Assembly (NCBI GenBank): GCA_049890115.1
Contig: JBMHCC010000002.1
Span: 4,789 to 68,788 of the forward strand
Direction of reading: 5' to 3'
Length of the DNA stretch: 64,000 nucleotides
DNA from: Candidatus Puniceispirillaceae bacterium
GTDB lineage: Bacteria; Pseudomonadota; Alphaproteobacteria; Puniceispirillales; Puniceispirillaceae
Made by a program: the position numbers and the translations under genes. This document shows, in pieces, positions 3 to 22,785 of this stretch (the stretch's first letter is position 1; every line of letters begins with the position of its first letter). The notes beneath the pieces were generated by a model. That model saw nothing but the letters and a program-made list of their open reading frames with translations, had not been told where the DNA came from and made no database searches.

Positions 3-2645
3 GTGGTGGTCGGCGGGATTTGGCAGACCTTTACATTTATTAACTCGTCTATCAATACAAATATCTCACGAACTGCTGAATTAGAGCAATCTGAAACCTA
101 TCTGAATTATATTTCTACTTTATCAGGGCGTGCTGTGTCATCTGATACAAATGGAGATGGTTCTTGTGTATCCTTTGTGAATGAATCACCATCTGGTGAA
201 GCAACGACAACAAAGTTTAAATTGGTGCTGCCTGATAATGCGCCATCTGACTATCTGCGTGCGACAGGTTGGGTGTCTAATAATCCGTCATCTAGCTGTG
301 ATGATAACCCAGCAGAGCCAATTTGGCGTGCTTTATCTGACAAAGGTGCATTATCACTTAGTCCGTCGTCTCTTCATTCGCTTGATCTGAATGCTATTTT
401 TAAAGCTGATACCGCAGCTGTTACTGGATTTGATTATGAATTTGATACCCTTATTAGTCAGAAACTCTATAAGGGCGCACGTGCCGCACTTGGCACAGAT
501 AGTTTCGAAGGGCCATCAGGCGCTGGTTCATTTACCGTAGATTTCTGGTTGCAAAACCCCTTTGGCACGGACTTTACCGCTGGCCCACCACTTAATTCTG
601 TTCCAATGGAAGATAATACCACAATTTTGGCCTTTGGTGACCCTGTTGATAAGGCAAAGCAGGTTGTGATTGGCTTTGAGGATAGAAAGCTGGTGTTGCG
701 GCGTGGTTCTGGTTCGCGCAAGCATAGTACAGCCAAGCCCTATGGGGAATTTACCAGTGCAACAATTAAAGATGTGAATTTGTTTTGGAATCATATTGCG
801 ATTGTCTGGAATGGTGCTGATAATAGCTCTGCCTTTTATTTTAATGGCCTGAATATTGATAATACTACCACTACGATAGATAGCGGGCCAAATGGTTGGC
901 TTCATTATGATTTGCCAATTACCTCACATCTTTATCTAGGGTCTTATGACCAATTTGATATCTCAACAACAACTCAGCGTTCACAAGCGCGCATTGATGA
1001 GCTTCGGATTTGGCGCGATGCATTAAACGCCACTCAGATCAAGAATATCAGACGTCGTGAAAGCTTGGTTGATGAGCCAGGATTGATAGGCTATTGGCGG
1101 TTTGAACAAAATGCTGATCCAGTGGCGCTGAGTGACAATACGACCGATCTTAAAGATTGGACAGCCAATAGCAATCACCTGCGTTATTTCACAACAACAG
1201 ATAATGTCACCTATACACAAGCCACTCTGCCAATTATTCATAGCAAAAGCCGCGCGCCAATCGCTGCTACTCCTTTCAAAAAGGCTGGCAGTAATGATGC
1301 GCTGTCATTGGAAATGCAATTTGTCGTGACAAATGCCTTTGGGGAACAAAAACGCCAATCAACCTTGTCAAAGCGCGTGCCTGTGGCACGTTTTGCGCCT
1401 GTTGGTCTGGTTGCGCTGGAAGATAATTCATCAGTAGAGGTGCAAATTGAAATTATCGGCTCTCATGATGATATTACGCTAGAATTTGACGCCTTATTTG
1501 ACCCATCTGTGAAACCACAGGCCAATGCTTGTGATCTGTATGACACAGTTGATCCCAATAATTGTAACTTTACCGCATCAGCGTTTCGCATTCAGCTAGA
1601 TCAACCATGTCAGGTTGCTGATAATGAGACGCTTGCCACATGTACCATTAATTCCAACGATATTACCTTACAGGAAGGCATCGCGTTCTCCTCTATTGAA
1701 TTGCGCAATTTCGGTCAGGATTCTGGTGATTACCAAACAGTCCCTGGTGATAAGATTACTATGCAGATTTATGAGACCTGTACCTTTGGAATGAATGATG
1801 ATGGCACAACAGCGATGTTGATTGATACAGGCTATATGCAAGGTGATAATTTCATCAATCAGCGTTCTTATGTGACCTATTCTTTTGAAGCTGCAACAGC
1901 ATCTGAAAATATTGAATATTTATTCGGAACACCGCGTTCTGGTGATTATGATGAACCGCAATTATGGAGTGGTAAAAGAGATGTTGTCAGAGGGTCACCT
2001 GATTTAGGTGCCTTCACCAAACGTCGCCATATTTCGCCATTTTTATTCCGCACCACAAATGATAATTACAGCTTTGTGATGGGCTTTGATAAACCCTATA
2101 GGCAGTGGGATGATGGTGATGATTTATGGAATAATCATTTCACACCACGCTATCAATTCACTGTTACTGATACAGATGATGATAATGAATGTAGCTCTAT
2201 TGGATTGTCAGAAATTGCAATGTGCGCTGCCATCGAAGATAATAGCACAGTGAAAGTCTGTAATGATGGGCCAACTAGCAATGTCTATTGCTTTGTTGAA
2301 TTCCAGATTTCCAATATGCCAACAAATGCAGATGCCTTTGTGAAATTGGATGAGACCAATGAATATCAAAAGCCACAATCCACACTAGAAGATTTTGTTG
2401 GTGTTAATCGCTGGGGCGGTGGTGCCACAGATGGGTTTGTTGTGAATTTAGAGGCGCAAGATTTACGAAATTATGCCGACACACTTGGTGACCCGCTCAT
2501 GCAGGTGAAATTACGTGCTGGTATGGATTATTGGTATCTAATGACAACACCTGATAATGCCTCTGCCGGTAAAACTGTGAAATTACGCACTGGTGAGACT
2601 GATACGGTTCGCTATCGGCTATCAACTTCCAAAGTCTGCCCTTGA
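3..2645 (+). CDS. Large secreted/surface protein, C-terminal 880 aa (5' end lies outside the window), with a LamG/concanavalin-A-like (Laminin_G_3-type) domain
   Basis: The ORF is open from the window edge. Residues ~165-345 carry LamG_3 hallmarks (FTVDFWL, NHIAIVWNG, LYLGS, IDELRIWRDAL). A second LamG-start-like motif (LIGYWRFEQN) follows. The C-terminal ~500 aa are acidic and Cys-rich, with no family I recognise. Confidence 0.75.
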   Translation: MVVGGIWQTFTFINSSINTNISRTAELEQSETYLNYISTLSGRAVSSDTNGDGSCVSFVNESPSGEATTTKFKLVLPDNAPSDYLRATGWVSNNPSSSCDDNPAEPIWRALSDKGALSLSPSSLHSLDLNAIFKADTAAVTGFDYEFDTLISQKLYKGARAALGTDSFEGPSGAGSFTVDFWLQNPFGTDFTAGPPLNSVPMEDNTTILAFGDPVDKAKQVVIGFEDRKLVLRRGSGSRKHSTAKPYGEFTSATIKDVNLFWNHIAIVWNGADNSSAFYFNGLNIDNTTTTIDSGPNGWLHYDLPITSHLYLGSYDQFDISTTTQRSQARIDELRIWRDALNATQIKNIRRRESLVDEPGLIGYWRFEQNADPVALSDNTTDLKDWTANSNHLRYFTTTDNVTYTQATLPIIHSKSRAPIAATPFKKAGSNDALSLEMQFVVTNAFGEQKRQSTLSKRVPVARFAPVGLVALEDNSSVEVQIEIIGSHDDITLEFDALFDPSVKPQANACDLYDTVDPNNCNFTASAFRIQLDQPCQVADNETLATCTINSNDITLQEGIAFSSIELRNFGQDSGDYQTVPGDKITMQIYETCTFGMNDDGTTAMLIDTGYMQGDNFINQRSYVTYSFEAATASENIEYLFGTPRSGDYDEPQLWSGKRDVVRGSPDLGAFTKRRHISPFLFRTTNDNYSFVMGFDKPYRQWDDGDDLWNNHFTPRYQFTVTDTDDDNECSSIGLSEIAMCAAIEDNSTVKVCNDGPTSNVYCFVEFQISNMPTNADAFVKLDETNEYQKPQSTLEDFVGVNRWGGGATDGFVVNLEAQDLRNYADTLGDPLMQVKLRAGMDYWYLMTTPDNASAGKTVKLRTGETDTVRYRLSTSKVCP

Positions 2646-2716: not shown

Positions 2717-3247
2717 ATGAATATTGAAAAACTTGCTGTTGGCAAAAACCCACCAGAAGATGTGAATGTTATCATTGAAATTCCAGCTGGCTCATCACCA
2801 GTGAAATATGAAGTTGATAAGGATTCTGGTGCATTATTGGTTGACCGTTTTGTTCATACAGCGATGCATTATCCTGTCAATTATGGTTTTGTCCCTCATA
2901 CGCTTTCAGATGATGGTGACCCGATTGATGCTTGTGTTTTAACGCCAATGCCTGTTGTTCATGGTTCAGTGATTGCAGCGCGCCCTATTGGTGTTTTGAT
3001 GATGGAAGATGAATCAGGGCTTGATGAAAAGCTGCTTTGCGTGCCTGTTGATAAATTGCATCCGCTTTATAAGGATGTGAAAGAAGCCACAGATTTGCAG
3101 CCTGTTATCTTAGAGCAGATTGGTCATTTCTTTGAACATTACAAAGATTTGGAAAAAGGTAAATGGGTCAAAGTGCAAGGCTGGGAAGGCTCAGCCAAAG
3201 CAGCTGAGATGATCACACAAGCTATTGCCAGAGCGGCTGCGAAATAA
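2717..3247 (+). CDS. ppa: Inorganic pyrophosphatase (family I)
   Basis: 176 aa with typical soluble PPase motifs (IEIPAGSxxKYE, DGDPIDACVL, KDLEKGKWVKV). AAGGAAG RBS upstream. Confidence 0.95.
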   Translation: MNIEKLAVGKNPPEDVNVIIEIPAGSSPVKYEVDKDSGALLVDRFVHTAMHYPVNYGFVPHTLSDDGDPIDACVLTPMPVVHGSVIAARPIGVLMMEDESGLDEKLLCVPVDKLHPLYKDVKEATDLQPVILEQIGHFFEHYKDLEKGKWVKVQGWEGSAKAAEMITQAIARAAAK

Positions 3248-3268: not shown

Positions 3269-3478
3269 TTAATATTTTGAATATTTGTGGGTGCGGGGTG
3301 AAAGCCCCCACCCACTTTTTGTTGCGGCTATGGAAATCATCGGCCGCAACTTATCTTGTGGGATGCGCTTTAAATAGCCAGATTTATCCTGCGCCAGAAT
3401 ATCATCAATACTGATATTATGATCGCGCCCCTCATCTCGTAATGCGCTGAAGATCATCATAATTCTCTTTAGGCTCAT
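3269..3478 (-). CDS. Hypothetical small protein (69 aa), doubtful
   Basis: GAGGT sits 8 nt upstream of the ATG. However, the 3' end of the ORF reads through the ppa terminator hairpin, and I recognise no family. Confidence 0.25.
   Translation of the reverse strand: MSLKRIMMIFSALRDEGRDHNISIDDILAQDKSGYLKRIPQDKLRPMISIAATKSGWGLSPRTHKYSKY
3287..3320 (+). terminator. Rho-independent terminator of ppa
   Basis: GTGGGTG(C)GGGG-TGAAAG-CCCCCACCCAC forms an 11-bp GC-rich stem with one bulge, followed directly by TTTTT. It lies 40 nt after the ppa stop. Confidence 0.85.
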
Positions 3479-3619
3479 CTCATGCTACCTCACAGCTGAA
3501 ATCACCGCTTTTATAAGCTGATTATATGATAATCATAAGGCGGTTTTTGCCTAGGAAAATTTTCTTTGCCAAAAGATGACAATCTTTATGAATGCAGTTA
3601 TAAGGAAATGGTCTGACAT

Positions 3620-3828
3620 CGTCTGTTGGGAGAGAGCATAGCCATAAGGCTGTGCCGCCGAAGGAGCAAAGCCTCAGGAATCTCTCAGGCAAAAGAACCA
3701 CAGAGGATAGACATTCTGGAGAGTGGCTGGCAGTCCAGCCCACCGACGGGGATAGTTTTAATAGAGCATCAGCTAGCTTGTCTGATGTGCTGATAAAACA
3801 AAACTCTCAGGTCCCATGACAGATGAGG
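3620..3828 (+). promoter_or_regulatory. Tandem glycine riboswitch (two aptamers) in the 5' leader of the DadA-like gene
   Basis: Aptamer 1 reads GGGAGAG..GCAUAGCC-AUAA-GGCUGUGC..CGCCGAAGGAGCAA..CUCUCAGGCAAAAGAACCACAGA. Aptamer 2 reads CUGGAGAG-UGGCUGG-CAGU-CCAGCC-CACCGACGGGGAUA..CUCUCAGGUCCCAUGACAGAUG. These match the conserved GGAGAG / CCGAAGG(A/G)GCAA / CUCAGGCAAAAGGAC cores of glycine aptamers. P1 pairings TCTGT/ACAGA and CAT(T)CTG/CAGATG are visible. Confidence 0.85.
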
Positions 3829-3903
3829 CAAAATGAATCGTTTCGCTATGACAGAGATACACACATCTGTCTGGCGTCTCATTTTTGTCAAAGGGATTAA
3901 AAG

Positions 3904-5133
3904 ATGAAGCATATTGCCATTATCGGTGCTGGAATTACCGGCATGTCAACTGCCTTTGAATTAACCCAGCGTGGCTATCAGGTTTCAGTTTATGACAAGC
4001 ATCGTTATGCAGCGATGGAAACATCCTTTGCCAATGGCGGCCAGTTATCAGCTTCTAATGCTGAGGTTTGGACCAGATGGCAGACGATTTTCAAAGGCAT
4101 GAAATGGATGCTGAAATCTGATGCGCCTTTATTGGTCAATCCAACGCCATCTTTGCATAAATATGGCTGGATGCTGGAATTTATGTCTCAGATCCCCAAT
4201 TATGAAAACAACACCATAAAGACAGCTGAAATGGCAGTGCGTTCACGTGATTTTATGACCGAGATGGCAGAAAAAGCATCGATTGAATTTCACCGTGTCA
4301 ATCAGGGGATTTTGCATTTCTATCAAGATGAAGCAGAATTTGAACATGCCCATAATGTCACAAAACTACTGAAAAAAGGTGGTTTGGAACGCCGCCGCCT
4401 GAGCGCTGAAGAAGTGGTCGAAATTGAACCTCATATCAAATCAAAAATTATTGGTGGGTATTATACTGAGTCTGATTTTACAGGTGATATTCATAAATTC
4501 TCAACTGGGCTTGCCAAAGCTTGCGAAAAAGCAGGTGTGATCTTCCACTGGAATCATGAGGTCACAGATATCATGCCGCAAAATGGCAATCCAGTTATCA
4601 AAGCTAAAATAGATGATGATGGCGAGCTATCAGACCGCAGCTATGATGGGGTGGTGATTTGCGCTGGTGTTTATAGCCGCTTTCTGGCCAAGCAAGCAGG
4701 AGATCGTGTTAATATTTATCCTGTGAAAGGCTATTCCATTACCGTTCATCTTGATGATGATGATAGCCGCAATGCCGCACCATGGGTCAGTTTGCTTGAT
4801 GACAGAGCGAAGATTGTGACCTCACGCCTTGGCGAAGATCGGTTTCGTGTTGCAGGCACAGCTGAATTTAACGGCTATAATTATAATATCAGAGCTGACA
4901 GAATTGCCCCATTGACCAAATGGGTTGAAACGCATTTTCCTGGTGTGAACACAGAATATGTGACGCCTTGGGCAGGGTTGCGCCCGATGATGCCAAATAT
5001 GATGCCGCGCATTGGTCGTGGTAGAAACAAGGGTATTTTCTATAATACAGGTCATGGTCATCTTGGCTGGACACTCTCTTGTGCCTCTGCCCATATGATA
5101 AGTGATGTGATTACTGCATCTGACAATCAGTAA
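3904..5133 (+). CDS. FAD-dependent amino-acid dehydrogenase/oxidase, DadA-like (DAO family)
   Basis: 409 aa. N-terminal dinucleotide fold IAIIGAGITGMSTAFEL..V.VYD, then ETSFANGGQLS as in the D-amino-acid dehydrogenase small subunit. C-terminal GHGHLGWT motif. AAGGGA RBS. Confidence 0.85.
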   Translation: MKHIAIIGAGITGMSTAFELTQRGYQVSVYDKHRYAAMETSFANGGQLSASNAEVWTRWQTIFKGMKWMLKSDAPLLVNPTPSLHKYGWMLEFMSQIPNYENNTIKTAEMAVRSRDFMTEMAEKASIEFHRVNQGILHFYQDEAEFEHAHNVTKLLKKGGLERRRLSAEEVVEIEPHIKSKIIGGYYTESDFTGDIHKFSTGLAKACEKAGVIFHWNHEVTDIMPQNGNPVIKAKIDDDGELSDRSYDGVVICAGVYSRFLAKQAGDRVNIYPVKGYSITVHLDDDDSRNAAPWVSLLDDRAKIVTSRLGEDRFRVAGTAEFNGYNYNIRADRIAPLTKWVETHFPGVNTEYVTPWAGLRPMMPNMMPRIGRGRNKGIFYNTGHGHLGWTLSCASAHMISDVITASDNQ

Positions 5134-5258
5134 TTCCATTCGCAGTAACGCAATTTTAAGGGGCTGATAGGCGTCATTATCTTGCCCTTTGATGATGCTT
5201 TGGGGTACATCTTGACTGCTGATAGGCTAGCAAGTGAAACAAAAAAGAGGATAGGTTC

Positions 5259-6305
5259 ATGCAAAGGCTTACAATCACACGACCTGATGACTGGCATTTG
5301 CATTTGCGTGATGGCGATATGCTAAGGGCGGTGCTGCCCTATAGTGCGCGTGATTTTGGCAGGGCAATTATCATGCCGAATTTGGTGCCACCTGTTGTGA
5401 CTGTCAAAGATGCCGAAGCCTATCGTGAGCGCATAGTAAAAGCGTTGCCAGAGGGGGCTGATTTCACGCCGTTAATGGTGTTGTATTTAACAGAACAGAC
5501 AGACCCAGCTGATGTTAAAGCAGGCATTGAATCTGGCCTTATCAGTGCTGTTAAACTTTATCCAGCAGGTGCGACAACCAATTCAGCCTCTGGCGTGCGT
5601 TCCATGACAAAAGTGATGCCTGTCCTAGAGATGATGGCAGATGCTGGCTTGCCGCTTTGTGTGCATGGTGAGGTCACTGATCCAGAGATTGATATTTTTG
5701 ACAGAGAAGCTGTCTTTATTGATAAAGTGCTAGACCCGCTTGGACGTAGCTTGCCTGAATTGCGTGTTGTGTTTGAACATATCACAACCAAGCAGGCAGT
5801 TAGCTATGTGAGCGGTGCCAGCCGTGCTTTGGCTGCAACCATTACCACACATCATCTGATGATTAATCGTAATGCCTATCTGGCTGGCGGGATTAAGCCG
5901 CATTATTATTGTCTGCCTGTTGCCAAAAGAGAGACTCATCGCAAAGCGTTGGTCGAGGCAGCGATTTCAGGTGATCCTCGTTTTTTCCTTGGCACTGATT
6001 CAGCCCCTCATACTGATCCTGCAAAATTACAACCTTGTGGCTGTGCTGGTATTTTCACAAGCCCAAATACAATGGCTTGTCTTGCCCAGGTTTTCGAAGA
6101 TGAAGATGCGCTTGATAAATTAGAAGGTTTTGCCAGCTTGCATGGTCCAGCTTTTTATAAAATGCCAGCCAATCAGGGGCAGATGATATTGGAACGCCAT
6201 GATAAGCCTGTCAGTTTTGAAGATGCTGTTCCTACGCCAGAAGGGCCTGTGACTATTTTTGACCCGCAACGACCAATTTACTGGGATGTGGTGCGCACAA
6301 GCTAA
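5259..6305 (+). CDS. pyrC: Dihydroorotase (class II, E. coli type)
   Basis: 348 aa. N-terminal [11 protein letters not shown] and downstream [13 protein letters not shown] and DSAPH motifs are typical of PyrC. Confidence 0.92.
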
Positions 6306-11495: not shown

Positions 11496-11584
11496 AAAGA
11501 CACATCATAATTGATGGTGTTATCTTGTGATTTTCGATAAGCTATGCTTCAAACTTTATTTTGATAATATTGTGGTTTTCTAAA

Positions 11585-12454
11585 ATGACAATTTTCAATC
11601 TTGGATCGATTAACCTTGATCATTTCTATACGAGCGCTCATCTGCCAGTGCCAGGTGAAACAATGTTTGCCTCGACCTACTCGCAAGGGCTAGGCGGCAA
11701 GGGTGCTAATCAATCTGTGGCTATTGGCAAGTCTGGTGCAGCTGTTTTTCATATTGGTCAAATAGGCCGAAATGATGAGGCGCATTTGTCTCTATTGAAA
11801 GAGGCGAATGTGAATTTGCATTTTGTCAGGCCATGTGATGATGCCACAGGCCATGCGATTGTGATGATTGATGAGGTAAGTGCTGAGAATCAAATCCTGA
11901 TTATTCAAGGTGCGAATATCACCATCACATCTCAGCATATTCACGATGCGCTAGCTGATGCTGGCACTGGTGATTGGGCACTGACTCAAAATGAAACAAA
12001 TGGCACTGAAGAATTTTTAAAGCTGGCCAAAGATAAGGGGTTAAAGCTATGCTATTCAGCTGCCCCATTTGATAAAGATAAATTATTATCAGTGATTGAT
12101 ATGATTGATTTGCTGGTGGTTAATGAGATTGAAGCAGCTGAGATTTCATCAGCGCTTGGCGGGTCACCTGAAAGTTGGCCTGTGCCCAATGTGATTGTGA
12201 CCAAAGGCAAGGATGGGGCAGATTATTTTGGTGCAGAGGGGCAGTTTCACCAGCCAGCTGAACCAGTTAATGCGATAGATAGCACAGGTGCTGGTGATAC
12301 CTATTTAGGGTTTTTACTTGGCCGCTTATCGCTGGGCGAGAGCATGAAACAGGCCATGACACTTGCTGGCAAAGCTGCTGGTATTCAGGTCACACGCCTA
12401 GGCACGGCAAGCGCCATACCTGATTTATCAGAATTACAACTTGATAAAGGATAA
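11585..12454 (+). CDS. rbsK: Ribokinase (PfkB family)
   Basis: N-terminal GSINLDH..GGKGANQ and C-terminal DSTGAGDTYLG motifs of ribokinase. Start placed at ATG 11585. Confidence 0.82.
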   Translation: MTIFNLGSINLDHFYTSAHLPVPGETMFASTYSQGLGGKGANQSVAIGKSGAAVFHIGQIGRNDEAHLSLLKEANVNLHFVRPCDDATGHAIVMIDEVSAENQILIIQGANITITSQHIHDALADAGTGDWALTQNETNGTEEFLKLAKDKGLKLCYSAAPFDKDKLLSVIDMIDLLVVNEIEAAEISSALGGSPESWPVPNVIVTKGKDGADYFGAEGQFHQPAEPVNAIDSTGAGDTYLGFLLGRLSLGESMKQAMTLAGKAAGIQVTRLGTASAIPDLSELQLDKG

Positions 12455-13410
12455 TGAAGATGAGCCAGACTAAGATTATCATCGATACAGATCCAGGCAT
12501 TGATGATGCTATGGCAATTCATCTGGCTTTTGCAGATAAACGTATTTCGGTGGTTGGCCTGACTTGTATTTTTGGTAATGTCAATCAGGAACAGGCAACC
12601 AGAAATGCCCTGTGGCTGGCTGAAACAGCACATTATGATTGTGCTGTGGCAGAAGGGGCAATGCGCCCTTTGATACAAGAACCAAACACGCCAAGCTATT
12701 ATGTGCATGGTGATGAAGGGTTTGGTGATTTGCCAGCCCAACAGCCAGCAGGGCAAAAACATCAGCTTGATGCTGCGGATTATATCATTGAGACCTGCCG
12801 TGCTCATCCAGGTGAGATCACATTATGCCCAGTTGGTCCTTTGACCAATATCGCATTGGCGCTTCAGCGATGCCCTGAATTAGTCAGCTTGGTCAAATCA
12901 GTTGTTATCATGGGTGGTGCTGGCTTTGTGCCTGGCAATGTCACTGATTATGCAGAGGCCAATATCTGGAATGATCCACATGCAGCAGAAATAGTATTTG
13001 CTGCGGATTGGGAAGTAGTAATGATAGGGCTTGATGTCACTCAGCAAATTAGATGCAGCCCTGAAGACTATCTCTCTATTGCTGAGGCCAGCCCTGAAAT
13101 TGGCGGGTTTATTTATGATATTTCAAAATTCTATACACGCTTTTATCAATCTATCCTGCATGAAGAGGTTTGTGTCTTGCATGACCCAGCAGCGATTATT
13201 GCGATTACCAATCCAGAATTATTTGATTATCGCATGATGCCTGTCACAGTGATATGTGACGGTGAAGCCATTGGTCAGACTGTGCCAGATGCCAGTTTGC
13301 AAAGGCGGGCAGCAAAAATAGCAGTTGGCGTCAATGTCGAAAAAGTGAAAGGCTATTACCTATCGCTATCTGGCAAGGCTGATGCGGCAAAGGCAGAACG
13401 TAGCCAGTAA
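12454..13410 (+). CDS. Ribonucleoside hydrolase (IU-NH family)
   Basis: Signature N-terminal IIIDTDPGIDDAMAI aspartate cluster. The start overlaps the ribokinase stop (TAATG). Confidence 0.9.
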   Translation: MKMSQTKIIIDTDPGIDDAMAIHLAFADKRISVVGLTCIFGNVNQEQATRNALWLAETAHYDCAVAEGAMRPLIQEPNTPSYYVHGDEGFGDLPAQQPAGQKHQLDAADYIIETCRAHPGEITLCPVGPLTNIALALQRCPELVSLVKSVVIMGGAGFVPGNVTDYAEANIWNDPHAAEIVFAADWEVVMIGLDVTQQIRCSPEDYLSIAEASPEIGGFIYDISKFYTRFYQSILHEEVCVLHDPAAIIAITNPELFDYRMMPVTVICDGEAIGQTVPDASLQRRAAKIAVGVNVEKVKGYYLSLSGKADAAKAERSQ

Positions 13411-13456
13411 TATGTGATTTGCCGTAATGGTAACAAAGGTGAGGAAGGGCAGTAAC

Positions 13457-14290
13457 ATGAAGATTGAATTAATTGATTATCAGGCAGATGATGCGCGTGA
13501 AGCGCTGGCACGCTCTTTGCATAATACTGGCTTTGCGGTGCTGAAAAATCATCCTATTTCAGCTGATAGAATTCAGGAGATTTATGATAGCTGGGCTGGG
13601 TTTTTTGCCTCTGACGATAAGCATAACTGGCTGCGTGACCCTGATAATCATGATGGTTATTTTCCGTTTCGCTCTGAAAATGCCAAAGATAGAACACAAA
13701 AAGACCTAAAAGAATTTTATCATGTCTATCCGTGGGGGCGTGTGCCAGATAGCTTGGCAGATGTCACAAGAGCGATGCAGGATGATTTAACCAGATTAGG
13801 TGTTGAATTGCTTGGTTGGCTGCAAGATGAAACGCCTGACGATGTGAAATCACAATTTACCATGCCACTAGATGAGATGATGGCCGAATCACTTCAGTCA
13901 CTATTGCGCATTTTGCATTATCCACCTGTAGAAGAGGATATTGAAGAGGGCGCTATTAGGGCAGCGGCGCATGAAGATATTAATCTTATCACCTTGCTTT
14001 TGGCAGGCTCACAACCTGGCCTGCAAGCCCAAGATAGCCAAGGAAATTGGCATGATATCTCATGTGATGCAGGGATGATTACAATCAATAATGGGGATAT
14101 GTTGGCTCTTGCTAGCCAGCATTATTTTCCCTCTACGACACATAGGGTTGTGAATCCTGATGCACATGCCAATCAATCACGCTATTCTATGCCTATCTTT
14201 TTACATCCGCGACCTGACGTCATGTTGGACAAGGATTTAAGCGCAGGTGATTACCTGCAACAAAGACTAAAAGAAATTGGTCTGAAATAA
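13457..14290 (+). CDS. 2-oxoglutarate/Fe(II)-dependent oxygenase (isopenicillin-N-synthase-like family)
   Basis: Facial triad and 2OG anchor are visible: HED (AAHEDINLI), distal His in STTHRV, and RYS (RxS). GAGGAAGGG RBS 8 nt before ATG 13457. Confidence 0.8.
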   Translation: MKIELIDYQADDAREALARSLHNTGFAVLKNHPISADRIQEIYDSWAGFFASDDKHNWLRDPDNHDGYFPFRSENAKDRTQKDLKEFYHVYPWGRVPDSLADVTRAMQDDLTRLGVELLGWLQDETPDDVKSQFTMPLDEMMAESLQSLLRILHYPPVEEDIEEGAIRAAAHEDINLITLLLAGSQPGLQAQDSQGNWHDISCDAGMITINNGDMLALASQHYFPSTTHRVVNPDAHANQSRYSMPIFLHPRPDVMLDKDLSAGDYLQQRLKEIGLK

Positions 14291-14304
14291 CGGGAGTCAA
14301 AAAT

Positions 14305-15309
14305 ATGAGGAACTTACTGAAATCAGCTGCTATCCTTTTGGGTGCGGTTAGCTTGTCAGCTTCAGCATCAGCTGCAGATATCAAGCCTGCTGTTATCTAT
14401 GATATGGGTGGCAAATTCGACAAGTCTTTCAATGAAGGTGTCTGGAATGGCGTAAAGCGTTTCCAGGATGAAACTGGCATTGAAGTGATGGAATTTGAAG
14501 TCACAAATGAAACACAGCGTGAGCAGGCGATGCGTCGCATGGCTGAACGTGGTGCCACAATTATCCTTGGCGTTGGTTTTGCACAAGCTGATGCGATTGC
14601 GGCTGTTTCAGCTGAATATCCTGAAAAGCAATTCTCAATCATTGATGTGGGCTGGTTGGATGCTCCAAATCTGCGCCAATATGTGTTTAAAGAACATGAA
14701 GGCTCATATCTTGTTGGTGTTGCAGCAGCAAAAGCAACGCAAACAGACAAGGTTGGTTTTGTCGGTGGTATGGATATCCCGCTGATCAGCAAATTTGCCT
14801 GTGGTTATGTTGGTGGTGCGAAATCAGTGAATGCTGATATCGAGGTTTATCAGAATATGACAGGTACAACACCATCAGCATGGAATGACCCAGCCAAAGG
14901 TGCTGAATTAACACGCAGCCAAATCGACCGTGGTGCTGATGTTGTCTATCAGGCAGCTGGTGGTACAGGTATTGGTGTAATCCAGGCAGCAGCTGATGCT
15001 GGCAAGCTATCAATCGGTGTTGATTCAAACCAGAATGGTCTAGCACCAGGTTCAGTTCTAACATCAATGCTAAAGCGTGTTGATGTAGCAGCTTATAACA
15101 CATTCATGGATGCGAAAAATGATGCTTTCACATCAGGCGTTCAGGTTCTTGGTGTTGCTGAAGGCGGCGTTGACTGGGCATTGGATGACAATAATGCATC
15201 ATTGATCACAGCTGATATGAAGGCAGCGATTGAAGATGCACGTGCTGGCATTCTGTCAGGTGCAATTCAGGTGCATGACTATACAACAGATTCAAACTGC
15301 CCTTACTAA
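14305..15309 (+). CDS. BMP-family (PnrA/Med-like) nucleoside ABC transporter substrate-binding protein
   Basis: Signal peptide, then DMGGKFDKSFNEGVWNGV and GFVGGMDIPLI motifs typical of basic membrane protein family binding proteins. Confidence 0.88.
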   Translation: MRNLLKSAAILLGAVSLSASASAADIKPAVIYDMGGKFDKSFNEGVWNGVKRFQDETGIEVMEFEVTNETQREQAMRRMAERGATIILGVGFAQADAIAAVSAEYPEKQFSIIDVGWLDAPNLRQYVFKEHEGSYLVGVAAAKATQTDKVGFVGGMDIPLISKFACGYVGGAKSVNADIEVYQNMTGTTPSAWNDPAKGAELTRSQIDRGADVVYQAAGGTGIGVIQAAADAGKLSIGVDSNQNGLAPGSVLTSMLKRVDVAAYNTFMDAKNDAFTSGVQVLGVAEGGVDWALDDNNASLITADMKAAIEDARAGILSGAIQVHDYTTDSNCPY

Positions 15310-15320
15310 AGGTTAGTGGA

Positions 15321-16886
15321 ATGTCTTTTGACACAAAAGATGAAAACGGCGGCTTACCGCCGTTTTCTATTATTTTAACAGATATTTGCAAACGCTTTGG
15401 CACAGTCAGAGCCAATCATAATGTTGATCTGCAAGTAGAGCGCGGCACAATTCACGGCATTATTGGTGAAAATGGTGCTGGCAAATCAACACTTGTTTCT
15501 ATTCTTTATGGCTTTTATCAAGCTGATAGCGGCACGATTGAGATTAATCAAAAACCAGCACATATCCAGTCATCATCAGATGCAATTGCGGTTGGTATTG
15601 GGATGGTGCATCAGCATTTCATGCTTGTGCCAAATTTCACTGCTTTGGAAAATGTTATCCTTGGCTATGAGGCAGAACGTCAATTACAGCCCTCACTAGA
15701 AGAAGGGCGTGCTAAACTAAAAGAGCTAGCTGATAGTTATGGGCTTGATGTGCCTCTTGATGTGCCTGTTGGTGATCTGCCAGTTGGTTTGCAACAGCGT
15801 GTGGAGATTCTCAAAACGCTGTATCGCGGGGCAGATATCCTGATCCTAGATGAACCGACAGGCGTCTTGACACCACAAGAAACAGATCAGCTATTTGAGA
15901 TTTTGAAAACCCTGCGTGCGCAAGGTGTGACTATTCTGCTCATTACACATAAATTGCGCGAAATTATGGCGATCACTGATAATGTGTCTGTGATGCGCCA
16001 AGGTGAGATGGTTGCCCATTGTAAGACTGCCAAAACCAATCCAACTGAATTAGCAGAGCTGATGGTTGGTCGCTCAGTGTTATTGCAGATTGATAAAACA
16101 AAGGCCTCTGCTGGTGATGATTATCTGGTGGTATCTGGCCTCAGCCACAAGGATGATAGCGGTGCACCGCGCCTTCGTGATGTATCATTTACGATGCGTG
16201 CTGGTGAAATTCTGGGTGTGGCAGGTGTGTCTGGTAATGGGCAATCTGAATTATTAGAGCTATTATCTGGCATGGTGGCACCTCAGCAAGGTGAAATCAT
16301 TCTAAAAGGTCAATCCATCACAAGCGATAACCCAGCTAATCCCGCTAGTTTGCGAAAAATGGGTGTGGCACATGTGCCAGAAGATCGCCATGCGGTTGGG
16401 ATGGTACTGCCATTTAGTGCAGCAGAAAGCGCCATTCTAGGATATGAAGATGACCCAGCCTTAGGCAAAAGCTGGTGGCTTAGCCCGTCAAAAACAGCTG
16501 CTTATTGCCGTGATTTGATGAAGCGATTTGACGTCAGACCATTAGCACCATGGCTGAAATCCAATTTATTTTCAGGTGGTAATCAGCAGAAAATTGTATT
16601 GGCAAGAGAGATATCAAAAGATCCAGATATCCTTCTAGTTGGTCAGCCAACCAGAGGCGTTGATATTGGTGCGATTGAATTTATCCATAATCAGCTTGTG
16701 GCTTTGCGTGATGCTGGCTGTGCCATTTTATTAGTATCAGTTGAACTTGATGAAATTCTGAGCCTATCAGACAGGATCATTGTGATGAATAATGGCGAGA
16801 TTGTTGGTACGCTTGATGCGCATGAGGCAGATGAAACACGCCTTGGCCTGATGATGGCTGGCATTGATGAAAGACAAGCATCATGA
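15321..16886 (+). CDS. Nucleoside/sugar-type ABC transporter ATP-binding protein (duplicated ATPase)
   Basis: 521 aa with two nucleotide-binding domains (GENGAGKST and GVSGNGQSEL Walker A motifs). Confidence 0.9.
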   Translation: MSFDTKDENGGLPPFSIILTDICKRFGTVRANHNVDLQVERGTIHGIIGENGAGKSTLVSILYGFYQADSGTIEINQKPAHIQSSSDAIAVGIGMVHQHFMLVPNFTALENVILGYEAERQLQPSLEEGRAKLKELADSYGLDVPLDVPVGDLPVGLQQRVEILKTLYRGADILILDEPTGVLTPQETDQLFEILKTLRAQGVTILLITHKLREIMAITDNVSVMRQGEMVAHCKTAKTNPTELAELMVGRSVLLQIDKTKASAGDDYLVVSGLSHKDDSGAPRLRDVSFTMRAGEILGVAGVSGNGQSELLELLSGMVAPQQGEIILKGQSITSDNPANPASLRKMGVAHVPEDRHAVGMVLPFSAAESAILGYEDDPALGKSWWLSPSKTAAYCRDLMKRFDVRPLAPWLKSNLFSGGNQQKIVLAREISKDPDILLVGQPTRGVDIGAIEFIHNQLVALRDAGCAILLVSVELDEILSLSDRIIVMNNGEIVGTLDAHEADETRLGLMMAGIDERQAS

Positions 16887-18016
16887 ACCCAGCACAATTA
16901 GCACGCTTTATTGATATCATCTTATTGCCCATCATTAATTTGCTGGCTGCTTTTATCGTATCTGGCATTATCATTGCCTTAATCGGTGAAAACCCCTTTC
17001 ATGCGCTTGGTGTGATGATAAAGGGGGCTTTTATCTATAAGGGCGCGCTTGGCTATACCTTATTTTACACGACTAATTTTATTTTTACTGGCCTTGCGGT
17101 GGCGGTCGCTTTTCATGCCATGCTTTTTAATATTGGTGGTGAGGGGCAGGCAGCAATGGGCGGGCTAGCTGTTGGGCTGGTGGCGTTACTTTTTGATACC
17201 AGCTTGCCAGCTTTTCTTGTGGTTCTGTTGGCAATAGGCGGTGCTTTCATATTAGGTGGTGTCTGGGGCGCGATACCTGGTTATCTGCAGGCGAAACGTG
17301 GCTCACATATTGTAATCACCACCATTATGTTTAACTTTATCGCTGCATCCATCATGGTCTGGCTGCTGGCAGGGATGTTGATGTCACCAGGGCAGATGTC
17401 ACCTGAAACACGGTCTTTTGCTGATGGTGTGGCGTTGGCAAAAATGCATCATCTGCTTGCTATGATAGGCATTGATGTGGCACGAAGCCCGCTCAATTTA
17501 TCCTTTATCATAGCTCTTTTATGCGCTTTTGGTGTGTGGGTTCTGATTTGGCGTTCCAAGCTAGGCTATGCCATCAGAGCCACCGGCTTTTCAGAACGAG
17601 CAGCCATTTATGGTGGGCATCAGCCAGCACGAATAATTATCATCACAATGGCAATTTCAGGCGGCCTTGCTGGGCTGATGGCATTGAATGAGATATTGGG
17701 TGTGCAGCATCGGGTGATTTTGAACTTTACCGCAGGCTATGGCTTTACAGGCATTGCGGTTGCCTTAATGGGGCGTAATCATCCTGTTGGCATTATTTTT
17801 GCAAGCCTGTTATTTGGTGCTTTATATCAAGGTGGTGCTGAGCTTGATTTTGAATTTCAAACCATCACAAGAGAGATGGTCATCATGATTCAAGGTCTGA
17901 TTATTCTATTCTCAGGCGCATTGGCTTATATGTTTAATCCTGCATTACAAAAGCTATTTTCAAAATGGCTAAACGCATCACCAACTGAGCCAGCTGGCAA
18001 AGGGCAGGAGGGCTAG
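16883..18016 (+). CDS. ABC transporter permease (BMP/nucleoside system)
   Basis: 377 aa polytopic membrane protein. ATGA overlap with the upstream ATPase gene. Confidence 0.85.
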   Translation: MNPAQLARFIDIILLPIINLLAAFIVSGIIIALIGENPFHALGVMIKGAFIYKGALGYTLFYTTNFIFTGLAVAVAFHAMLFNIGGEGQAAMGGLAVGLVALLFDTSLPAFLVVLLAIGGAFILGGVWGAIPGYLQAKRGSHIVITTIMFNFIAASIMVWLLAGMLMSPGQMSPETRSFADGVALAKMHHLLAMIGIDVARSPLNLSFIIALLCAFGVWVLIWRSKLGYAIRATGFSERAAIYGGHQPARIIIITMAISGGLAGLMALNEILGVQHRVILNFTAGYGFTGIAVALMGRNHPVGIIFASLLFGALYQGGAELDFEFQTITREMVIMIQGLIILFSGALAYMFNPALQKLFSKWLNASPTEPAGKGQEG

Positions 18017-18018
18017 CT

Positions 18019-18996
18019 ATGGATGATTTATGGCTGCAATTTGTGCTGACGATTGATGCGACCTTGCGGGTGGCAACACCTTTAATCCTATGCGCGATGG
18101 CTGGGATTTTTTCAGAACGTGCTGGCATTATTGATATCTCTTTAGAAGGCAAAATGCTGATGGCTGCCTTTGCTGCTGCCTCTATGGCAACCTATTCAGG
18201 CTCGCCCTGGGCTGGTTTAATGATGGCAATGTTTGTGTCAGTTGGCCTTAGCTTGTTGCATGGCTTTGCCTGTATCACGCATCGCGGCAATCAGGTGATA
18301 TCTGGTTTGGCTATTAATATTTTGGCATCTGGTTTAACAGTTACTTTGGGCATTGCGTTTTTTGCGCGTGGTGGCCAGACACCCTTATTGGCAAAATCAG
18401 AACGTTTTGGTGCAATTAACCTGCCTTTGGCAGATTGGATAGGCGATAATGTGCCTATCATTGGAACGATATATAAGGAAATTTTATCTGGTCATAATGT
18501 GCTTGTCTGGTTGGGATTTGCGCTTGTATTTGTGACCTCTTATGTGGTGTTCAAAACATCATTTGGCTTGCGCTTGCGTGCTGTTGGCGAAAAGCCAGAG
18601 GCTGTTGATTCAGCTGGCTTATCTGTTTCAGGCCTGCGCTTTCAAGCTGTTATTATAGCCGGTATTTTGACAGGGATTGCTGGCGCTTATCTTTCTACAG
18701 CACATGGTGCAGGCTTTGTGCGCGAGATGACAGCTGGTAAAGGTTATATCGCATTGGCAGCGATGATTTTTGGGAAATGGCGGCCTTGGCCAGCCTTGGC
18801 AGCGTGCTTGATGTTCGGCTTTTTAGATGCGCTTGCAGCACGCCTGCAAGGTGTCTCATTGCCTTATATTGGCGAGATTTCAACAGATCTGATTCTGGCA
18901 TTGCCTTATATCATGACAGTGATATTGCTGGCAGGCTTTATTGGGTCTGCAACCCCGCCGCGCGCTATTGGAGTGCCTTATGTCAAAGAGCGATGA
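18019..18996 (+). CDS. ABC transporter permease (BMP/nucleoside system)
   Basis: 325 aa polytopic membrane protein, starting 2 nt after the preceding permease gene. Confidence 0.85.
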   Translation: MDDLWLQFVLTIDATLRVATPLILCAMAGIFSERAGIIDISLEGKMLMAAFAAASMATYSGSPWAGLMMAMFVSVGLSLLHGFACITHRGNQVISGLAINILASGLTVTLGIAFFARGGQTPLLAKSERFGAINLPLADWIGDNVPIIGTIYKEILSGHNVLVWLGFALVFVTSYVVFKTSFGLRLRAVGEKPEAVDSAGLSVSGLRFQAVIIAGILTGIAGAYLSTAHGAGFVREMTAGKGYIALAAMIFGKWRPWPALAACLMFGFLDALAARLQGVSLPYIGEISTDLILALPYIMTVILLAGFIGSATPPRAIGVPYVKER

Positions 18997-19393
18997 TGCT
19001 AAATATCAAGCTGTATTGCAGGCAGCGATTGATGCGCTGCCATCTGCCTATGCGCCTTATTCCCAGTTTCAGGTTGGAGCTGCCATCTTGGATGATAAGG
19101 GTGAAATTCATCAAGGTGTGAATGTGGAAAATGCCGCTTATCCGCAAGGCAGCTGTGCTGAGGCAGGTGCCATTGCGGCTATGGTGATGAAAGGGGGGCA
19201 GACTATCCGCCATATCGCTGTAGCTGGCAGAGGGGATGTATTATGCACCCCTTGCGGTGGATGCCGCCAGCGTATCCGTGAATTTGCCAACCCTGATACG
19301 ATTATTTCAGTTTGTGATGAGGCAGGATTGCGGAAGAGCTATGCTATTGCAGATTTGCTGCCAGATAGCTTTGGGCCTGATAATCTTGCCTAG
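18980..19393 (+). CDS. cdd: Cytidine deaminase (small homotetrameric type)
   Basis: Zinc motifs CAEAGAI and PCGGCRQ. Start set at ATG 18980 (MSKSDDAKY), overlapping the end of the permease gene. Confidence 0.88.
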   Translation: MSKSDDAKYQAVLQAAIDALPSAYAPYSQFQVGAAILDDKGEIHQGVNVENAAYPQGSCAEAGAIAAMVMKGGQTIRHIAVAGRGDVLCTPCGGCRQRIREFANPDTIISVCDEAGLRKSYAIADLLPDSFGPDNLA

Positions 19394-19397
19394 CTTA

Positions 19398-20036: not shown

Positions 20037-20144
20037 TTTCAGATAGCTTTCTGTTACTTTTTTTAAGTTGTGCTGTGTGCTACCAGCTTTATCATAGGAT
20101 ATCTTCATTGAACGGTTTGGCAAATAGCTTATTGGGTGCGGCTT

Positions 20145-22704: not shown

Positions 22705-22785
22705 AATCAGTCCTACTTAAAGTTTGTTAATGTAGAAAAGGCCTGCCAATTATTTGACAGGCCTCTTTCATTGTTTCTCAAGGCT

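What the first reader, a model, noticed from the sequence alone, without database searches (positions are those of the whole stretch)
3620..5133. Tandem glycine riboswitch controls a DadA-like FAD dehydrogenase rather than the glycine cleavage system
Both aptamers carry the conserved glycine-riboswitch cores (see the feature entry). The only downstream gene before a 125-bp gap is a 409-aa DadA/DAO-family flavoenzyme.

Glycine riboswitches are classically ON-switches for gcvT/gcvP operons. In some marine alphaproteobacteria they control glyoxylate-linked genes.

A glycine-induced DAO-family enzyme suggests oxidative deamination of glycine to glyoxylate, the chemistry of glycine oxidase ThiO in the same superfamily. 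That would be an alternative glycine-detoxification or assimilation route. No gcv, malate synthase or glyoxylate-consuming gene lies in the window.
Basis: partly seen in the sequence, partly recalled or inferred. Interest (0 to 1): 0.65.

Follow-up and report, generated by a model that had tools for sequence, protein, structure and literature searches.

The report
Glycine riboswitch switching on a glycine-oxidising flavoenzyme
A genuine two-part glycine-sensing RNA switch sits in front of a flavoenzyme gene that most likely converts excess glycine to glyoxylate; the pairing is real and widespread, but it is already listed in riboswitch catalogues, so this is an ordinary new example.

Summary
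Rfam's glycine model hits 3617-3709 (55.6 bits) and 3715-3823 (40 bits); the threshold is 32. The 409-aa ORF at 3904-5133 follows.

The protein belongs to NCBIfam NF009074 ('D-amino acid dehydrogenase', 670 bits, cut-off 494). It falls below the cut-offs for canonical DadA and for ThiO.

The predicted leader pairs the 3' tail of aptamer 2 with the Shine-Dalgarno region. Glycine binding should therefore free the ribosome site, making this an ON switch.

The riboswitch-gene pair is conserved in 47 of 50 orthologous loci scanned with Rfam. Core motifs are present in 78 of 81 loci across alpha-, beta- and gammaproteobacteria. No operon partner is conserved.

A Cupriavidus necator orthologue (59% identical) has the same tandem riboswitch. 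Its locus matches one of the two published dadA6 check primers. DadA6 is experimentally shown to oxidise glycine to glyoxylate and is about 200-fold induced on glycine.

'dadA/COG0665' appears under glycine riboswitches in Kazanov 2007 and in Sun 2013 (RegPrecise).

Verdict: a new member of a known kind, of modest interest. I found no paper that links DadA6's glycine induction to the riboswitch.

The parts
3576..3604 (+). Putative sigma-70-type promoter: -35 ATGACA (3576-3581), 17-nt spacer, -10 TATAAG (3599-3604). The transcript would start about 5 nt before aptamer 1.
   Evidence: Read from the sequence. It was not called by the consensus scan, which requires T at position 6 of the -10 hexamer. 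TGACA and TAT are invariant at the same aligned positions in L001 and L002, whose DadA-like proteins are 80-81% identical to the window's. Inferred, not shown.
3617..3709 (+). Glycine riboswitch aptamer 1
   Evidence: RF00504 at 55.6 bits (GA 32), E 9.6e-9, covering the full model 1-94. The core motifs GGGAGAG, CCGAAGGAGCAA and CUCUCAGGCAAAAG are invariant in seven related leaders.
3715..3823 (+). Glycine riboswitch aptamer 2. It carries an inserted hairpin of about 36 nt in the distal P3 arm (about 3759-3796).
   Evidence: RF00504 at 40.0 bits (GA 32), E 1.2e-4. The core motifs CUGGAGAG, CACCGACGGGGA and CUCUCAGGUCCCAUGACAGA are conserved in relatives.
3810..3903 (+). Expression platform. The tail of aptamer 2 pairs with the region just before the start codon. 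GGUCCC (3810-3815) pairs with GGGAUU (3893-3898). UGACAGAUGAGGC (3817-3829) pairs with GUCUCAUU (3876-3883) plus UGUCA (3886-3890). This sequesters the Shine-Dalgarno AAGGGA (3891-3896). The aptamer-2 P1 3' strand (3820-3823) lies inside this helix, so the two folds are mutually exclusive.
   Evidence: MFE folds: z -3.9; whole leader, z -4.2. The tail:SD duplex is -15.3 kcal/mol against -6.3 for shuffles. The complementary block GTCTGTCATGGGG before the ATG is conserved in relatives. Own-locus pairing beats cross-locus pairing in 42 loci (p = 2e-5). With the aptamer closed, the SD sits in a hairpin loop.
3904..5133 (+). DadA6-type FAD flavoenzyme (NF009074 family), a predicted glycine dehydrogenase/oxidase forming glyoxylate
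   Evidence: Pfam DAO at E 8.7e-72. NF009074 scores 669.7 bits (cut-off 494); NF001933 scores 346 (below 383); ThiO TIGR02352 scores 146.8 (below 250.8). It is 59% identical to C. necator P0189. The AlphaFold model has pLDDT 83 and pTM 0.86. The best PDB neighbours are glycine oxidases 4ysh, 7cyx and 1ng3, with TM 0.70-0.81.
5134..5258 (+). Intergenic gap before pyrC. The end of the transcription unit is unresolved.
   Evidence: No terminator-like site was found. The fold is no better than shuffles (z +0.6). pyrC follows only in the close SAR116-like relatives.

Best explanation
This is a self-contained, glycine-inducible unit for removing glycine.

A promoter just upstream transcribes a leader made of two glycine aptamers and one expression platform. 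Without glycine, the 3' tail of aptamer 2 pairs with the Shine-Dalgarno region of the next gene and translation is blocked. When glycine binds, the aptamers close, the tail is withdrawn, and the ribosome-binding site opens. This is an ON switch.

The gene encodes a DadA6-type FAD enzyme (NCBIfam NF009074). It oxidatively deaminates glycine to glyoxylate plus ammonium.

Shown here: the riboswitch, the family membership of the protein, and the conservation of the pair. Shown by others for the probable orthologue: glycine-to-glyoxylate activity and glycine induction. Inferred: the ON logic, glycine as the substrate of this particular protein, the electron acceptor, and the fate of the glyoxylate.
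For: - Riboswitch: two RF00504 hits above threshold.
- Enzyme family: NF009074 equivalog at 670 bits. Scores fall below the cut-offs for canonical DadA and for ThiO.
- Conservation: an Rfam glycine aptamer lies upstream of the orthologue in 47 of 50 loci from alpha-, beta- and gammaproteobacteria. In L016 the hit is borderline and about 457 nt upstream. Core motifs are present in 78 of 81 loci and in two sets in 48. No operon partner is conserved, so the riboswitch tracks this gene itself.
- ON logic: MFE folds sequester the SD with the aptamer-2 tail. The duplex z-score is -4.2. Across 42 distinct loci the tail pairs better with its own SD region than with those of other loci (-15.1 vs -12.0 kcal/mol, p = 2e-5). 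Aptamer 1 is the better-kept aptamer. Crum 2019 reports that pattern for the glycine-cleavage context and links context to ON or OFF logic (PMC6944388).
- Function: C. necator orthologue P0189 is 59% identical, scores 749 bits on NF009074, and has a tandem glycine riboswitch at L081 4726-4944. The published dadA6-rev primer matches 1.16-1.2 kb upstream of the gene start in all six Cupriavidus loci, with 1-3 mismatches.
- DadA6 oxidises glycine to glyoxylate in vivo, is essential for growth on glycine, and is about 200-fold induced on glycine.
- Structure: the nearest solved structures by sequence and by fold are glycine oxidases.
Against: - No experiment exists on this RNA or this protein.
- The DadA6 link rests on one of two primers, in strains other than H16. 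The forward primer was not found.
- 59% identity does not guarantee the same substrate preference.
- DadA6 induction could also involve protein regulators.
- The duplex statistics do not correct for relatedness between loci, and only 16 of 78 loci have z < -2 against shuffles.
- No glyoxylate-consuming gene lies in the window.
- Two orthologues, L014 and L047, lack the riboswitch.
Confidence: 0.78

Rival explanations
1. The enzyme is a general D-amino-acid (for example D-alanine) dehydrogenase, as annotated. Glycine is only a convenient inducer signal or a minor side substrate.
For: NCBIfam names the family 'D-amino acid dehydrogenase', and the protein scores 346 bits on the canonical DadA model. 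DAO-family enzymes are often promiscuous (established knowledge).
Against: The score is below the canonical DadA cut-off of 383. No alanine racemase or other D-amino-acid gene is a conserved neighbour. A glycine-specific sensor is conserved in front of the gene in about 95% of loci. The probable orthologue DadA6 supports growth on glycine through glyoxylate.
Confidence: 0.1
2. The riboswitch governs a longer transcript that also includes pyrC, and perhaps the potFGHI-like transporter downstream. On this view the flavoenzyme is not the sole regulated function.
For: No terminator-like site lies in the 125-nt gap. pyrC follows the gene in the six SAR116-like loci.
Against: pyrC adjacency is confined to close relatives. 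In about 75 other loci the downstream gene differs or is on the other strand. A TTGACT hexamer lies in the gap, but no matching -10 was identified (by eye). Glycine control of pyrimidine synthesis has no metabolic rationale.
Confidence: 0.1
3. The switch is an OFF switch, and the enzyme makes glycine rather than consuming it (for example a sarcosine- or iminodiacetate-type oxidase).
For: Structural neighbours include sarcosine oxidases, DMGDH and iminodiacetate oxidase. Glycine OFF switches exist for transporters (PMC6944388).
Against: The predicted alternative pairing uses the aptamer's own 3' strand to mask the SD, which gives ON logic. C. necator dadA6 is induced on glycine, not repressed. 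Aptamer 1 is the conserved one, the pattern Crum 2019 reports for the glycine-cleavage context.
Confidence: 0.03
4. The protein is a ThiO-like glycine oxidase that supplies dehydroglycine for thiazole (thiamine) synthesis.
For: The best PDB matches by sequence and by fold are ThiO-type glycine oxidases.
Against: TIGR02352 scores 146.8 against a cut-off of 250.8. Identity to ThiO structures is about 20%. There are no thiS/thiG/thiE neighbours and no TPP riboswitch.
Confidence: 0.02

Closest known systems
Glycine riboswitch - dadA (COG0665) units catalogued in Proteobacteria (Kazanov et al. 2007, PMC2211319, additional file 5; Sun et al. 2013 / RegPrecise, PMC3766115, additional file 1)
   Same: A glycine riboswitch lies directly upstream of a monocistronic dadA-like gene. 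Listed genomes include Roseobacter sp. MED193 (my locus L011, Rfam hit), Loktanella vestfoldensis, Oceanicola granulosus, Paracoccus denitrificans, Mesorhizobium loti and Burkholderia xenovorans, plus Sargasso Sea alphaproteobacterial fragments.
   Different: Those sources only tabulate the gene. They give no mechanism, substrate or expression-platform analysis. This instance comes from an uncultured marine alphaproteobacterium, and its nearest named relatives are Puniceispirillaceae/SAR116 MAGs. Its aptamer 2 carries an inserted hairpin of about 36 nt.
Cupriavidus necator DadA6 (Claassens et al. 2020, bioRxiv 10.1101/2020.03.11.987487; Nat Microbiol 2025, PMC11879842)
   Same: It belongs to the same NCBIfam equivalog NF009074 and is 59% identical over the full length. 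The same tandem glycine riboswitch lies upstream.
   Different: C. necator channels the glyoxylate into the glycerate pathway (gcl, tsr, ttuD). No such genes are in this window. The identification of the fetched locus as dadA6 rests on one primer match in non-H16 strains. The DadA6 papers I read do not mention a riboswitch.
Classical tandem glycine riboswitch ON switches of gcvT/gcvTHP operons (B. subtilis, Streptomyces, many Proteobacteria)
   Same: Two aptamers share one expression platform. The logic is ON, inducing a glycine-consuming function. Aptamer 1 is the better conserved one (PMC6944388).
   Different: The target is a single flavoenzyme giving glyoxylate rather than the four-protein cleavage system giving CO2, NH3 and methylene-THF. 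Control appears to be translational, by SD masking, rather than by an intrinsic terminator.
SAR11 glycine riboswitch on malate synthase glcB (cited in PMC5069720; Kazanov 2007)
   Same: Both are marine alphaproteobacterial glycine riboswitches tied to the glyoxylate node.
   Different: There the regulated enzyme consumes glyoxylate. Here it is predicted to produce it.
Bacillus ThiO glycine oxidase (PDB 1NG3, 1RYI, 4YSH, 7CYX)
   Same: Same fold (TM 0.70-0.81). The N-terminal GxGxxG motif and the WAGLRP motif are conserved. The chemistry is glycine oxidation.
   Different: Identity is about 20%. The ThiO model scores below its cut-off. The window protein has an extra, highly conserved segment at about residues 35-100 that ThiO aligns poorly to. 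The genomic and regulatory context also differs: ThiO sits in thi operons under TPP riboswitches.

Membership tests
Tandem glycine riboswitch (Rfam RF00504 x2) | Each aptamer scores at or above the curated gathering score of the covariance model | tested here: met
   55.6 and 40.0 bits against GA 32
Tandem glycine riboswitch (Rfam RF00504 x2) | [quoted passage not shown] | tested here: met
   Aptamers at 3617-3709 and 3715-3823 with a 5-nt linker. One platform spans 3810-3903 and the ATG is at 3904.
Tandem glycine riboswitch (Rfam RF00504 x2) | Conserved ligand-pocket core sequences in both aptamers | tested here: met
   The core blocks are invariant across seven diverged leaders and are found in 78 of 81 orthologous loci.
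Tandem glycine riboswitch (Rfam RF00504 x2) | Binds glycine and changes gene expression in response | not testable with these tools
   Needs in-line probing, ITC or reporter assays. Indirect support: the probable orthologue dadA6 is about 200-fold induced on glycine.
Tandem glycine riboswitch (Rfam RF00504 x2) | Leader-linker (P0 / kink-turn) interaction described for many tandem glycine riboswitches | not tested
   By eye, GUCU (3611-3614) could pair with AGAC (3710-3713). No analysis was run.
NCBIfam NF009074 (PRK12409, 'D-amino acid dehydrogenase'; DadA6-type) | Full-length match above the curated equivalog cut-off | tested here: met
   669.7 bits against a cut-off of 494, residues 1-406 on model positions 1-406 of 410. 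Six orthologues, including C. necator P0189, score 695-749 bits.
NCBIfam NF009074 (PRK12409, 'D-amino acid dehydrogenase'; DadA6-type) | DAO-superfamily two-domain FAD fold with an N-terminal GxGxxG motif | tested here: met
   Pfam DAO residues 4-401. G8, G10 and G13 are invariant. The model has pLDDT 83 and pTM 0.86. Foldseek probability is 1.00 to glycine and sarcosine oxidases.
NCBIfam NF009074 (PRK12409, 'D-amino acid dehydrogenase'; DadA6-type) | Catalyses glycine to glyoxylate + NH4+ | not testable with these tools
   Shown in vivo only for C. necator DadA6. The link to this family rests on a primer match and synteny.
Canonical DadA (NF001933; E. coli dadA-dadX type) | Score above the curated cut-off | tested here: not met
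   346 bits against a cut-off of 383. The same holds for six orthologues.
Canonical DadA (NF001933; E. coli dadA-dadX type) | Operon or neighbourhood with alanine racemase dadX | tested here: not met
   The downstream gene is pyrC. The largest neighbour cluster occurs in only 15 of 81 loci. The clusters inspected by eye show no racemase-like sequence, but they were not run against a family library.
ThiO glycine oxidase (TIGR02352) | Score above the curated cut-off, with thi-operon / TPP-riboswitch context | tested here: not met
   146.8 bits against a cut-off of 250.8. No TPP riboswitch is in the window, and there are no thi genes nearby.

The most novel reading that the evidence does not exclude
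The whole NF009074 family, now annotated 'D-amino acid dehydrogenase', would really be a riboswitch-gated, respiratory-chain-linked glycine dehydrogenase forming glyoxylate. That would make it a candidate for the orphan 'glycine dehydrogenase (cytochrome)' type of activity.

In many marine Proteobacteria (SAR116 relatives, roseobacters, Granulosicoccus) it would be a major route for glycine carbon that is independent of the glycine cleavage system. In some it could be the only riboswitch-controlled route: RegPrecise lists dadA as the sole glycine-riboswitch target in Loktanella vestfoldensis and Oceanicola granulosus.

The riboswitch, rather than a protein regulator, would then explain the roughly 200-fold glycine induction of C. 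necator dadA6. I found no paper making that connection.
Probability: 0.3. Interest if true: 0.5.

Novelty: new member of a known kind. Interest (0 to 1): 0.3.

Why it matters
The finding gives a better functional name to a very widespread, highly conserved enzyme family. More than 7,700 database clusters score E <= 1e-150, and mean column identity is 70% across three proteobacterial classes. The family is currently annotated as a D-amino-acid dehydrogenase.

It ties together two bodies of literature that do not cite each other: riboswitch regulon catalogues that list 'dadA', and metabolic-engineering work showing that DadA6 oxidises glycine.

For marine carbon and nitrogen cycling, it points to a route from glycine to glyoxylate in abundant planktonic lineages. 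The window's own ppa gene and the same gene order recur on Tara metagenome scaffolds.

It does not reveal a new kind of regulator or a new chemistry.

Tried and rejected
- The consensus promoter/terminator scan of 3400-5400 found no + strand promoter before the riboswitch and no terminator. A promoter was then read by eye and supported by conservation.
- I looked for a conserved operon partner that would say where the glyoxylate goes. ORFs in 81 loci were clustered, and the largest neighbour cluster occurs in only 15 loci. By eye these include a MarR-like regulator, an amidohydrolase-like protein, an SPFH/band-7-like protein and pyrC. None was run against a family library.
- I tried to obtain the C. 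necator H16 dadA6 locus itself. No locus tag is given in the papers. Four C. necator-group proteins were fetched and one was not on record. None of the strains is H16. The dadA6-for primer is absent even at 4 mismatches, probably because the downstream region differs between strains.
- Literature searches for 'glycine riboswitch' with 'D-amino acid dehydrogenase', 'dadA', 'glycine oxidase' and 'Cupriavidus' found no paper discussing the pairing in its main text. The pairing appears only in supplementary tables.
- Sub-threshold Rfam searches of the two riboswitch-less orthologues, L047 and L014, found no glycine aptamer.
- The ThiO (thiamine) role and canonical DadA identity were rejected on curated cut-offs and genomic context.
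- The shuffle test of tail:SD pairing is weak for many GC-rich loci (median z -0.6). It was replaced by an own-versus-cross-locus comparison.
Full report
OBSERVATION

A scan of the whole 64-kb window against Rfam 15 gave exactly two hits above gathering thresholds. Both are to RF00504 (glycine riboswitch aptamer) on the + strand. They lie at 3617-3709 (55.6 bits, E 9.6e-9) and 3715-3823 (40.0 bits, E 1.2e-4), against a gathering score of 32. The aptamers are 5 nt apart, the classical tandem arrangement. Aptamer 2 carries an inserted hairpin of about 36 nt in its distal P3 arm.

The next ORF on that strand is 3904-5133 (409 aa, ATG). pyrC starts 125 nt after its stop (TIGR00856, 418 bits). It is followed by a potFGHI-like ABC transporter. 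Upstream lie inorganic pyrophosphatase (2717-3247, +) and a 69-aa ORF on the opposite strand with no family match.

THE PROTEIN

The protein matches Pfam DAO over its full length (E 8.7e-72). In NCBIfam it matches the equivalog NF009074 (PRK12409, 'D-amino acid dehydrogenase') end to end with 669.7 bits, against a cut-off of 494. It falls below the cut-off of the canonical DadA model NF001933 (346 vs 383) and of ThiO TIGR02352 (146.8 vs 250.8).

The family is very strongly conserved. Thirty-one members from alpha-, beta- and gammaproteobacteria show 70% mean column identity. Many residues are invariant, including the N-terminal GxGxxG motif and the WAGLRPMxP and NTGHGHLGWTLS motifs.

An AlphaFold model built on that alignment has pLDDT 83 and pTM 0.86. 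Its best PDB neighbours are glycine oxidases (4ysh, 7cyx, 1ng3, 1ryi; TM 0.70-0.81, about 20% identity). Next come CmiS2, sarcosine oxidases, DMGDH and iminodiacetate oxidase. Glycine oxidases are also the best sequence matches in the PDB. This places the enzyme among flavoenzymes that act on glycine and N-substituted glycines. It does not by itself fix the substrate.

ORGANISM

The closest named relatives of the protein are MAGs of Candidatus Puniceispirillaceae/Puniceispirillales (SAR116), at 65-78% identity. Roseobacter-group proteins are about 60% identical. The window's own ppa gene, in the same gene order, recurs on Tara metagenome scaffolds. The source is therefore a marine planktonic alphaproteobacterium. 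This is an inference from the best hits.

CONSERVATION OF THE PAIR

I fetched 80 genomic loci encoding orthologues that are 57-81% identical. They include Puniceispirillales, many Rhodobacterales, Rhizobiales (Mesorhizobium, Aminobacter, Shinella), Granulosicoccus, Arenicella, Oceanospirillales and Burkholderiales.

Rfam at gathering threshold found a glycine aptamer on the same strand in 47 of the 50 loci scanned.
- In 46 loci it lies immediately upstream of the gene.
- In L016 it is a borderline hit (32.8 bits) about 457 nt upstream.
- L004 has only 61 nt of upstream DNA.
- L014 and L047 have no aptamer even at E <= 1.

A motif scan found the aptamer core blocks within 330 nt upstream in 78 of 81 evaluable loci, counting the window and one Cupriavidus locus. 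Two sets were present in 48 loci. One Rhodobacterales subgroup has one intact aptamer followed by what looks like a degenerate 'ghost' second aptamer.

Clustering all neighbouring ORFs showed no conserved operon partner. The largest neighbour cluster occurs in only 15 of 81 loci, and pyrC follows the gene only in the six SAR116-like loci. The riboswitch therefore travels with this gene as an autonomous unit.

MECHANISM

Folding the region from the end of aptamer 2 to the start codon gives a long helix (z = -3.9).
- GGUCCC (3810-3815) pairs with GGGAUU (3893-3898).
- UGACAGAUGAGGC (3817-3829) pairs with GUCUCAUU (3876-3883) plus UGUCA (3886-3890).

This helix buries the Shine-Dalgarno AAGGGA (3891-3896). 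It uses the 3' strand of aptamer 2's P1 (3820-3823), so it excludes the closed aptamer. The same pairing appears in the MFE of the whole 304-nt leader (z = -4.2).

When the aptamer nucleotides are withheld, the SD sits in the loop of a weak AU-rich hairpin. The tail:SD duplex is -15.3 kcal/mol, against -6.3 for shuffled SD regions (z = -4.2).

In the six closest leaders, a block GTCTGTCATGGGG (or GTCTGTTATGGGGG) lies directly before the ATG. It is complementary to CCCATGACAGAC of aptamer 2, and G-U-preserving changes are seen.

Across 42 distinct tandem-type loci, each aptamer tail pairs better with its own SD region than with those of other loci. The means are -15.1 and -12.0 kcal/mol (Wilcoxon one-sided p = 2e-5). 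This test is not corrected for phylogeny.

No intrinsic terminator was found. I therefore infer a translational ON switch: glycine binding withdraws the anti-SD strand.

This agrees with Crum et al. 2019 (PMC6944388). They report that aptamer 1 is the better conserved aptamer in the glycine-cleavage context and that genomic context predicts ON or OFF logic. Here aptamer 1 scores higher in every locus, and it is the aptamer retained in the singlets.

A plausible promoter lies just upstream: ATGACA (3576-3581), a 17-nt spacer, then TATAAG (3599-3604). Its TGACA and TAT positions are invariant in two relatives whose DadA-like proteins are 80-81% identical. The consensus scan missed it because of the final G.

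FUNCTION: THE LINK TO AN EXPERIMENT

Claassens et al. [quoted passage not shown]
- It is about 200-fold up-regulated during growth on glycine.
- Its expression lets an E. coli glyoxylate-auxotroph sensor grow on glycine.
- Its deletion abolishes growth on glycine, whereas deleting the glycine cleavage system does not.

A later paper calls it 'glycine oxidase' and gives colony-PCR primers (PMC11879842).

I retrieved C. necator-group orthologues of the window protein. P0189 is 59% identical and scores 748.9 bits on NF009074. Their loci are L081-L086.

The dadA6-rev primer matches with 1-3 mismatches in all six loci. The site is 1.16-1.2 kb upstream of the gene start, inside the neighbouring TonB-receptor gene, and points towards the gene. 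The expected number of chance matches is 0.00. This position fits a check primer placed just outside a roughly 1-kb homology arm.

The forward primer was not found. The downstream region differs between these strains, and none of them is H16.

L081 carries a tandem glycine riboswitch (4726-4825 at 55 bits; 4826-4944 at 42.4 bits) ending 56 nt before the start codon. It also has the same kind of tail:SD complementarity, GGUCCAGAAC with GUUCCUGGAACC.

So DadA6 is very probably a member of the same family and has the same riboswitch. That supports both the glycine-to-glyoxylate chemistry and the ON logic. None of the DadA6 papers I read mentions a riboswitch. No paper in the library pairs 'glycine riboswitch' with Cupriavidus in a relevant way.

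PRIOR KNOWLEDGE

The pairing itself is not new.
- Kazanov et al. [quoted passage not shown] The cases are two Sargasso alphaproteobacterial fragments and one betaproteobacterial fragment (additional file 5).
- The same paper states that all such functions except serC had already been seen under glycine riboswitch regulation by Barrick et al. 2004. It separately flags malate synthase as new.
- Sun et al. 2013 (PMC3766115, RegPrecise) list dadA in the glycine-riboswitch column for several genomes. These are Loktanella vestfoldensis SKA53 and Oceanicola granulosus (dadA only), and Paracoccus denitrificans, Roseobacter sp. MED193, Mesorhizobium loti and Burkholderia xenovorans (two copies).
- MED193 is my locus L011, where Rfam indeed finds the aptamer.

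Neither paper discusses the enzyme in its main text.

THE REST OF THE WINDOW

No gcvTHP, malate synthase, glyoxylate carboligase or beta-hydroxyaspartate-cycle-like gene was recognised among the larger ORFs. Whether the genome has a riboswitch-controlled gcv operon elsewhere cannot be told from 64 kb.

VERDICT

The finding is a real, canonical tandem glycine riboswitch. Most probably it acts as a translational ON switch on a DadA6-type flavoenzyme that oxidises glycine to glyoxylate.

It is a new member of a kind already catalogued, so interest is modest (0.3).

The residual value has three parts.
- The NF009074 family looks mis-named.
- The riboswitch probably explains the glycine induction of DadA6, a link I could not find in the literature.
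- The unit is widespread in marine plankton.

Noticed in passing
L011 3815-4003; also L013, L020, L021, L023, L024, L027, L032-L034, L036, L056, L063, L067, L069, L076, L079: One Rhodobacterales subgroup has only one intact glycine aptamer. About 100 nt follow that look like a degenerate 'ghost' second aptamer (CUGAAG ... GACCUGCGACAGAGGGG). Its tail is complementary to the SD region (GUCGCGGGAGG). A MarR-like ORF of about 170 aa lies about 235 nt upstream on the same strand in 15 of these loci.
   Followed up: partly
L081 6531-6623 (+): There is an Rfam C4 antisense RNA (RF01695) hit at 55.8 bits (GA 45). It lies about 260 nt downstream of the C. necator dadA6-like gene, in a region that differs between Cupriavidus strains. 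It may be a remnant of a P4/P1-like mobile element.
   Followed up: no
protein ids P0001 (436 aa), P0241/P0242 (437 aa), P0158 (436 aa): Several public gene calls for this family are 14-27 residues longer at the N terminus than the HMM-supported start. These calls run back into the riboswitch expression platform, which is a systematic start-codon mis-annotation.
   Followed up: partly
window 20775-23790 (-), 30144-31622 (-), 38819-40495 (+): These genes are a glycine-betaine-type ABC transporter (OpuAC binding protein, permease, ATPase), an aldehyde dehydrogenase and a GMC oxidoreductase (choline-dehydrogenase-like). Together they hint at choline or glycine-betaine uptake and catabolism, a possible endogenous source of glycine for the riboswitch to sense.
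   Followed up: no
window 35620-36765 (-) and 37273-38628 (+): An FMN-dependent alpha-hydroxy-acid dehydrogenase (PF01070, E 1.7e-135) lies near a GlcD-like FAD-linked oxidase. They are candidates for lactate or glycolate oxidation. If glycolate is the substrate, this would be a second source of glyoxylate in the same 64 kb.
   Followed up: no
window 11561-20723 and 42315-44193: A nucleoside-salvage cluster is present: PfkB kinase, inosine-uridine nucleoside hydrolase, 2OG-Fe(II) oxygenase, Bmp/PnrA-type ABC transporter, uracil phosphoribosyltransferase and thymidine kinase. A separate pair suggests pseudouridine catabolism (Indigoidine_A-like glycosidase plus PfkB kinase).
   Followed up: no
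window 46754-50298 (-): Homogentisate 1,2-dioxygenase, fumarylacetoacetase and a metallo-beta-lactamase-fold protein lie together. An FAD monooxygenase is adjacent at 45052-46656. This is an aromatic amino-acid (tyrosine/homogentisate) degradation cluster.
   Followed up: no
window 3269-3478 (-) and 3-2645 (+): A 69-aa ORF with no family match sits between ppa and the riboswitch promoter, on the opposite strand. It is also called as a gene on the Tara scaffolds. The 880-aa ORF at the window start has only a weak Laminin_G_3 / concanavalin-like match.
   Followed up: no
L014 (Mesorhizobium delmotii) and L047 (Granulosicoccus MAG): These are the only two orthologous loci with enough upstream DNA but no detectable glycine aptamer, even at E <= 1. 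They may be natural experiments in which the gene is controlled differently.
   Followed up: partly
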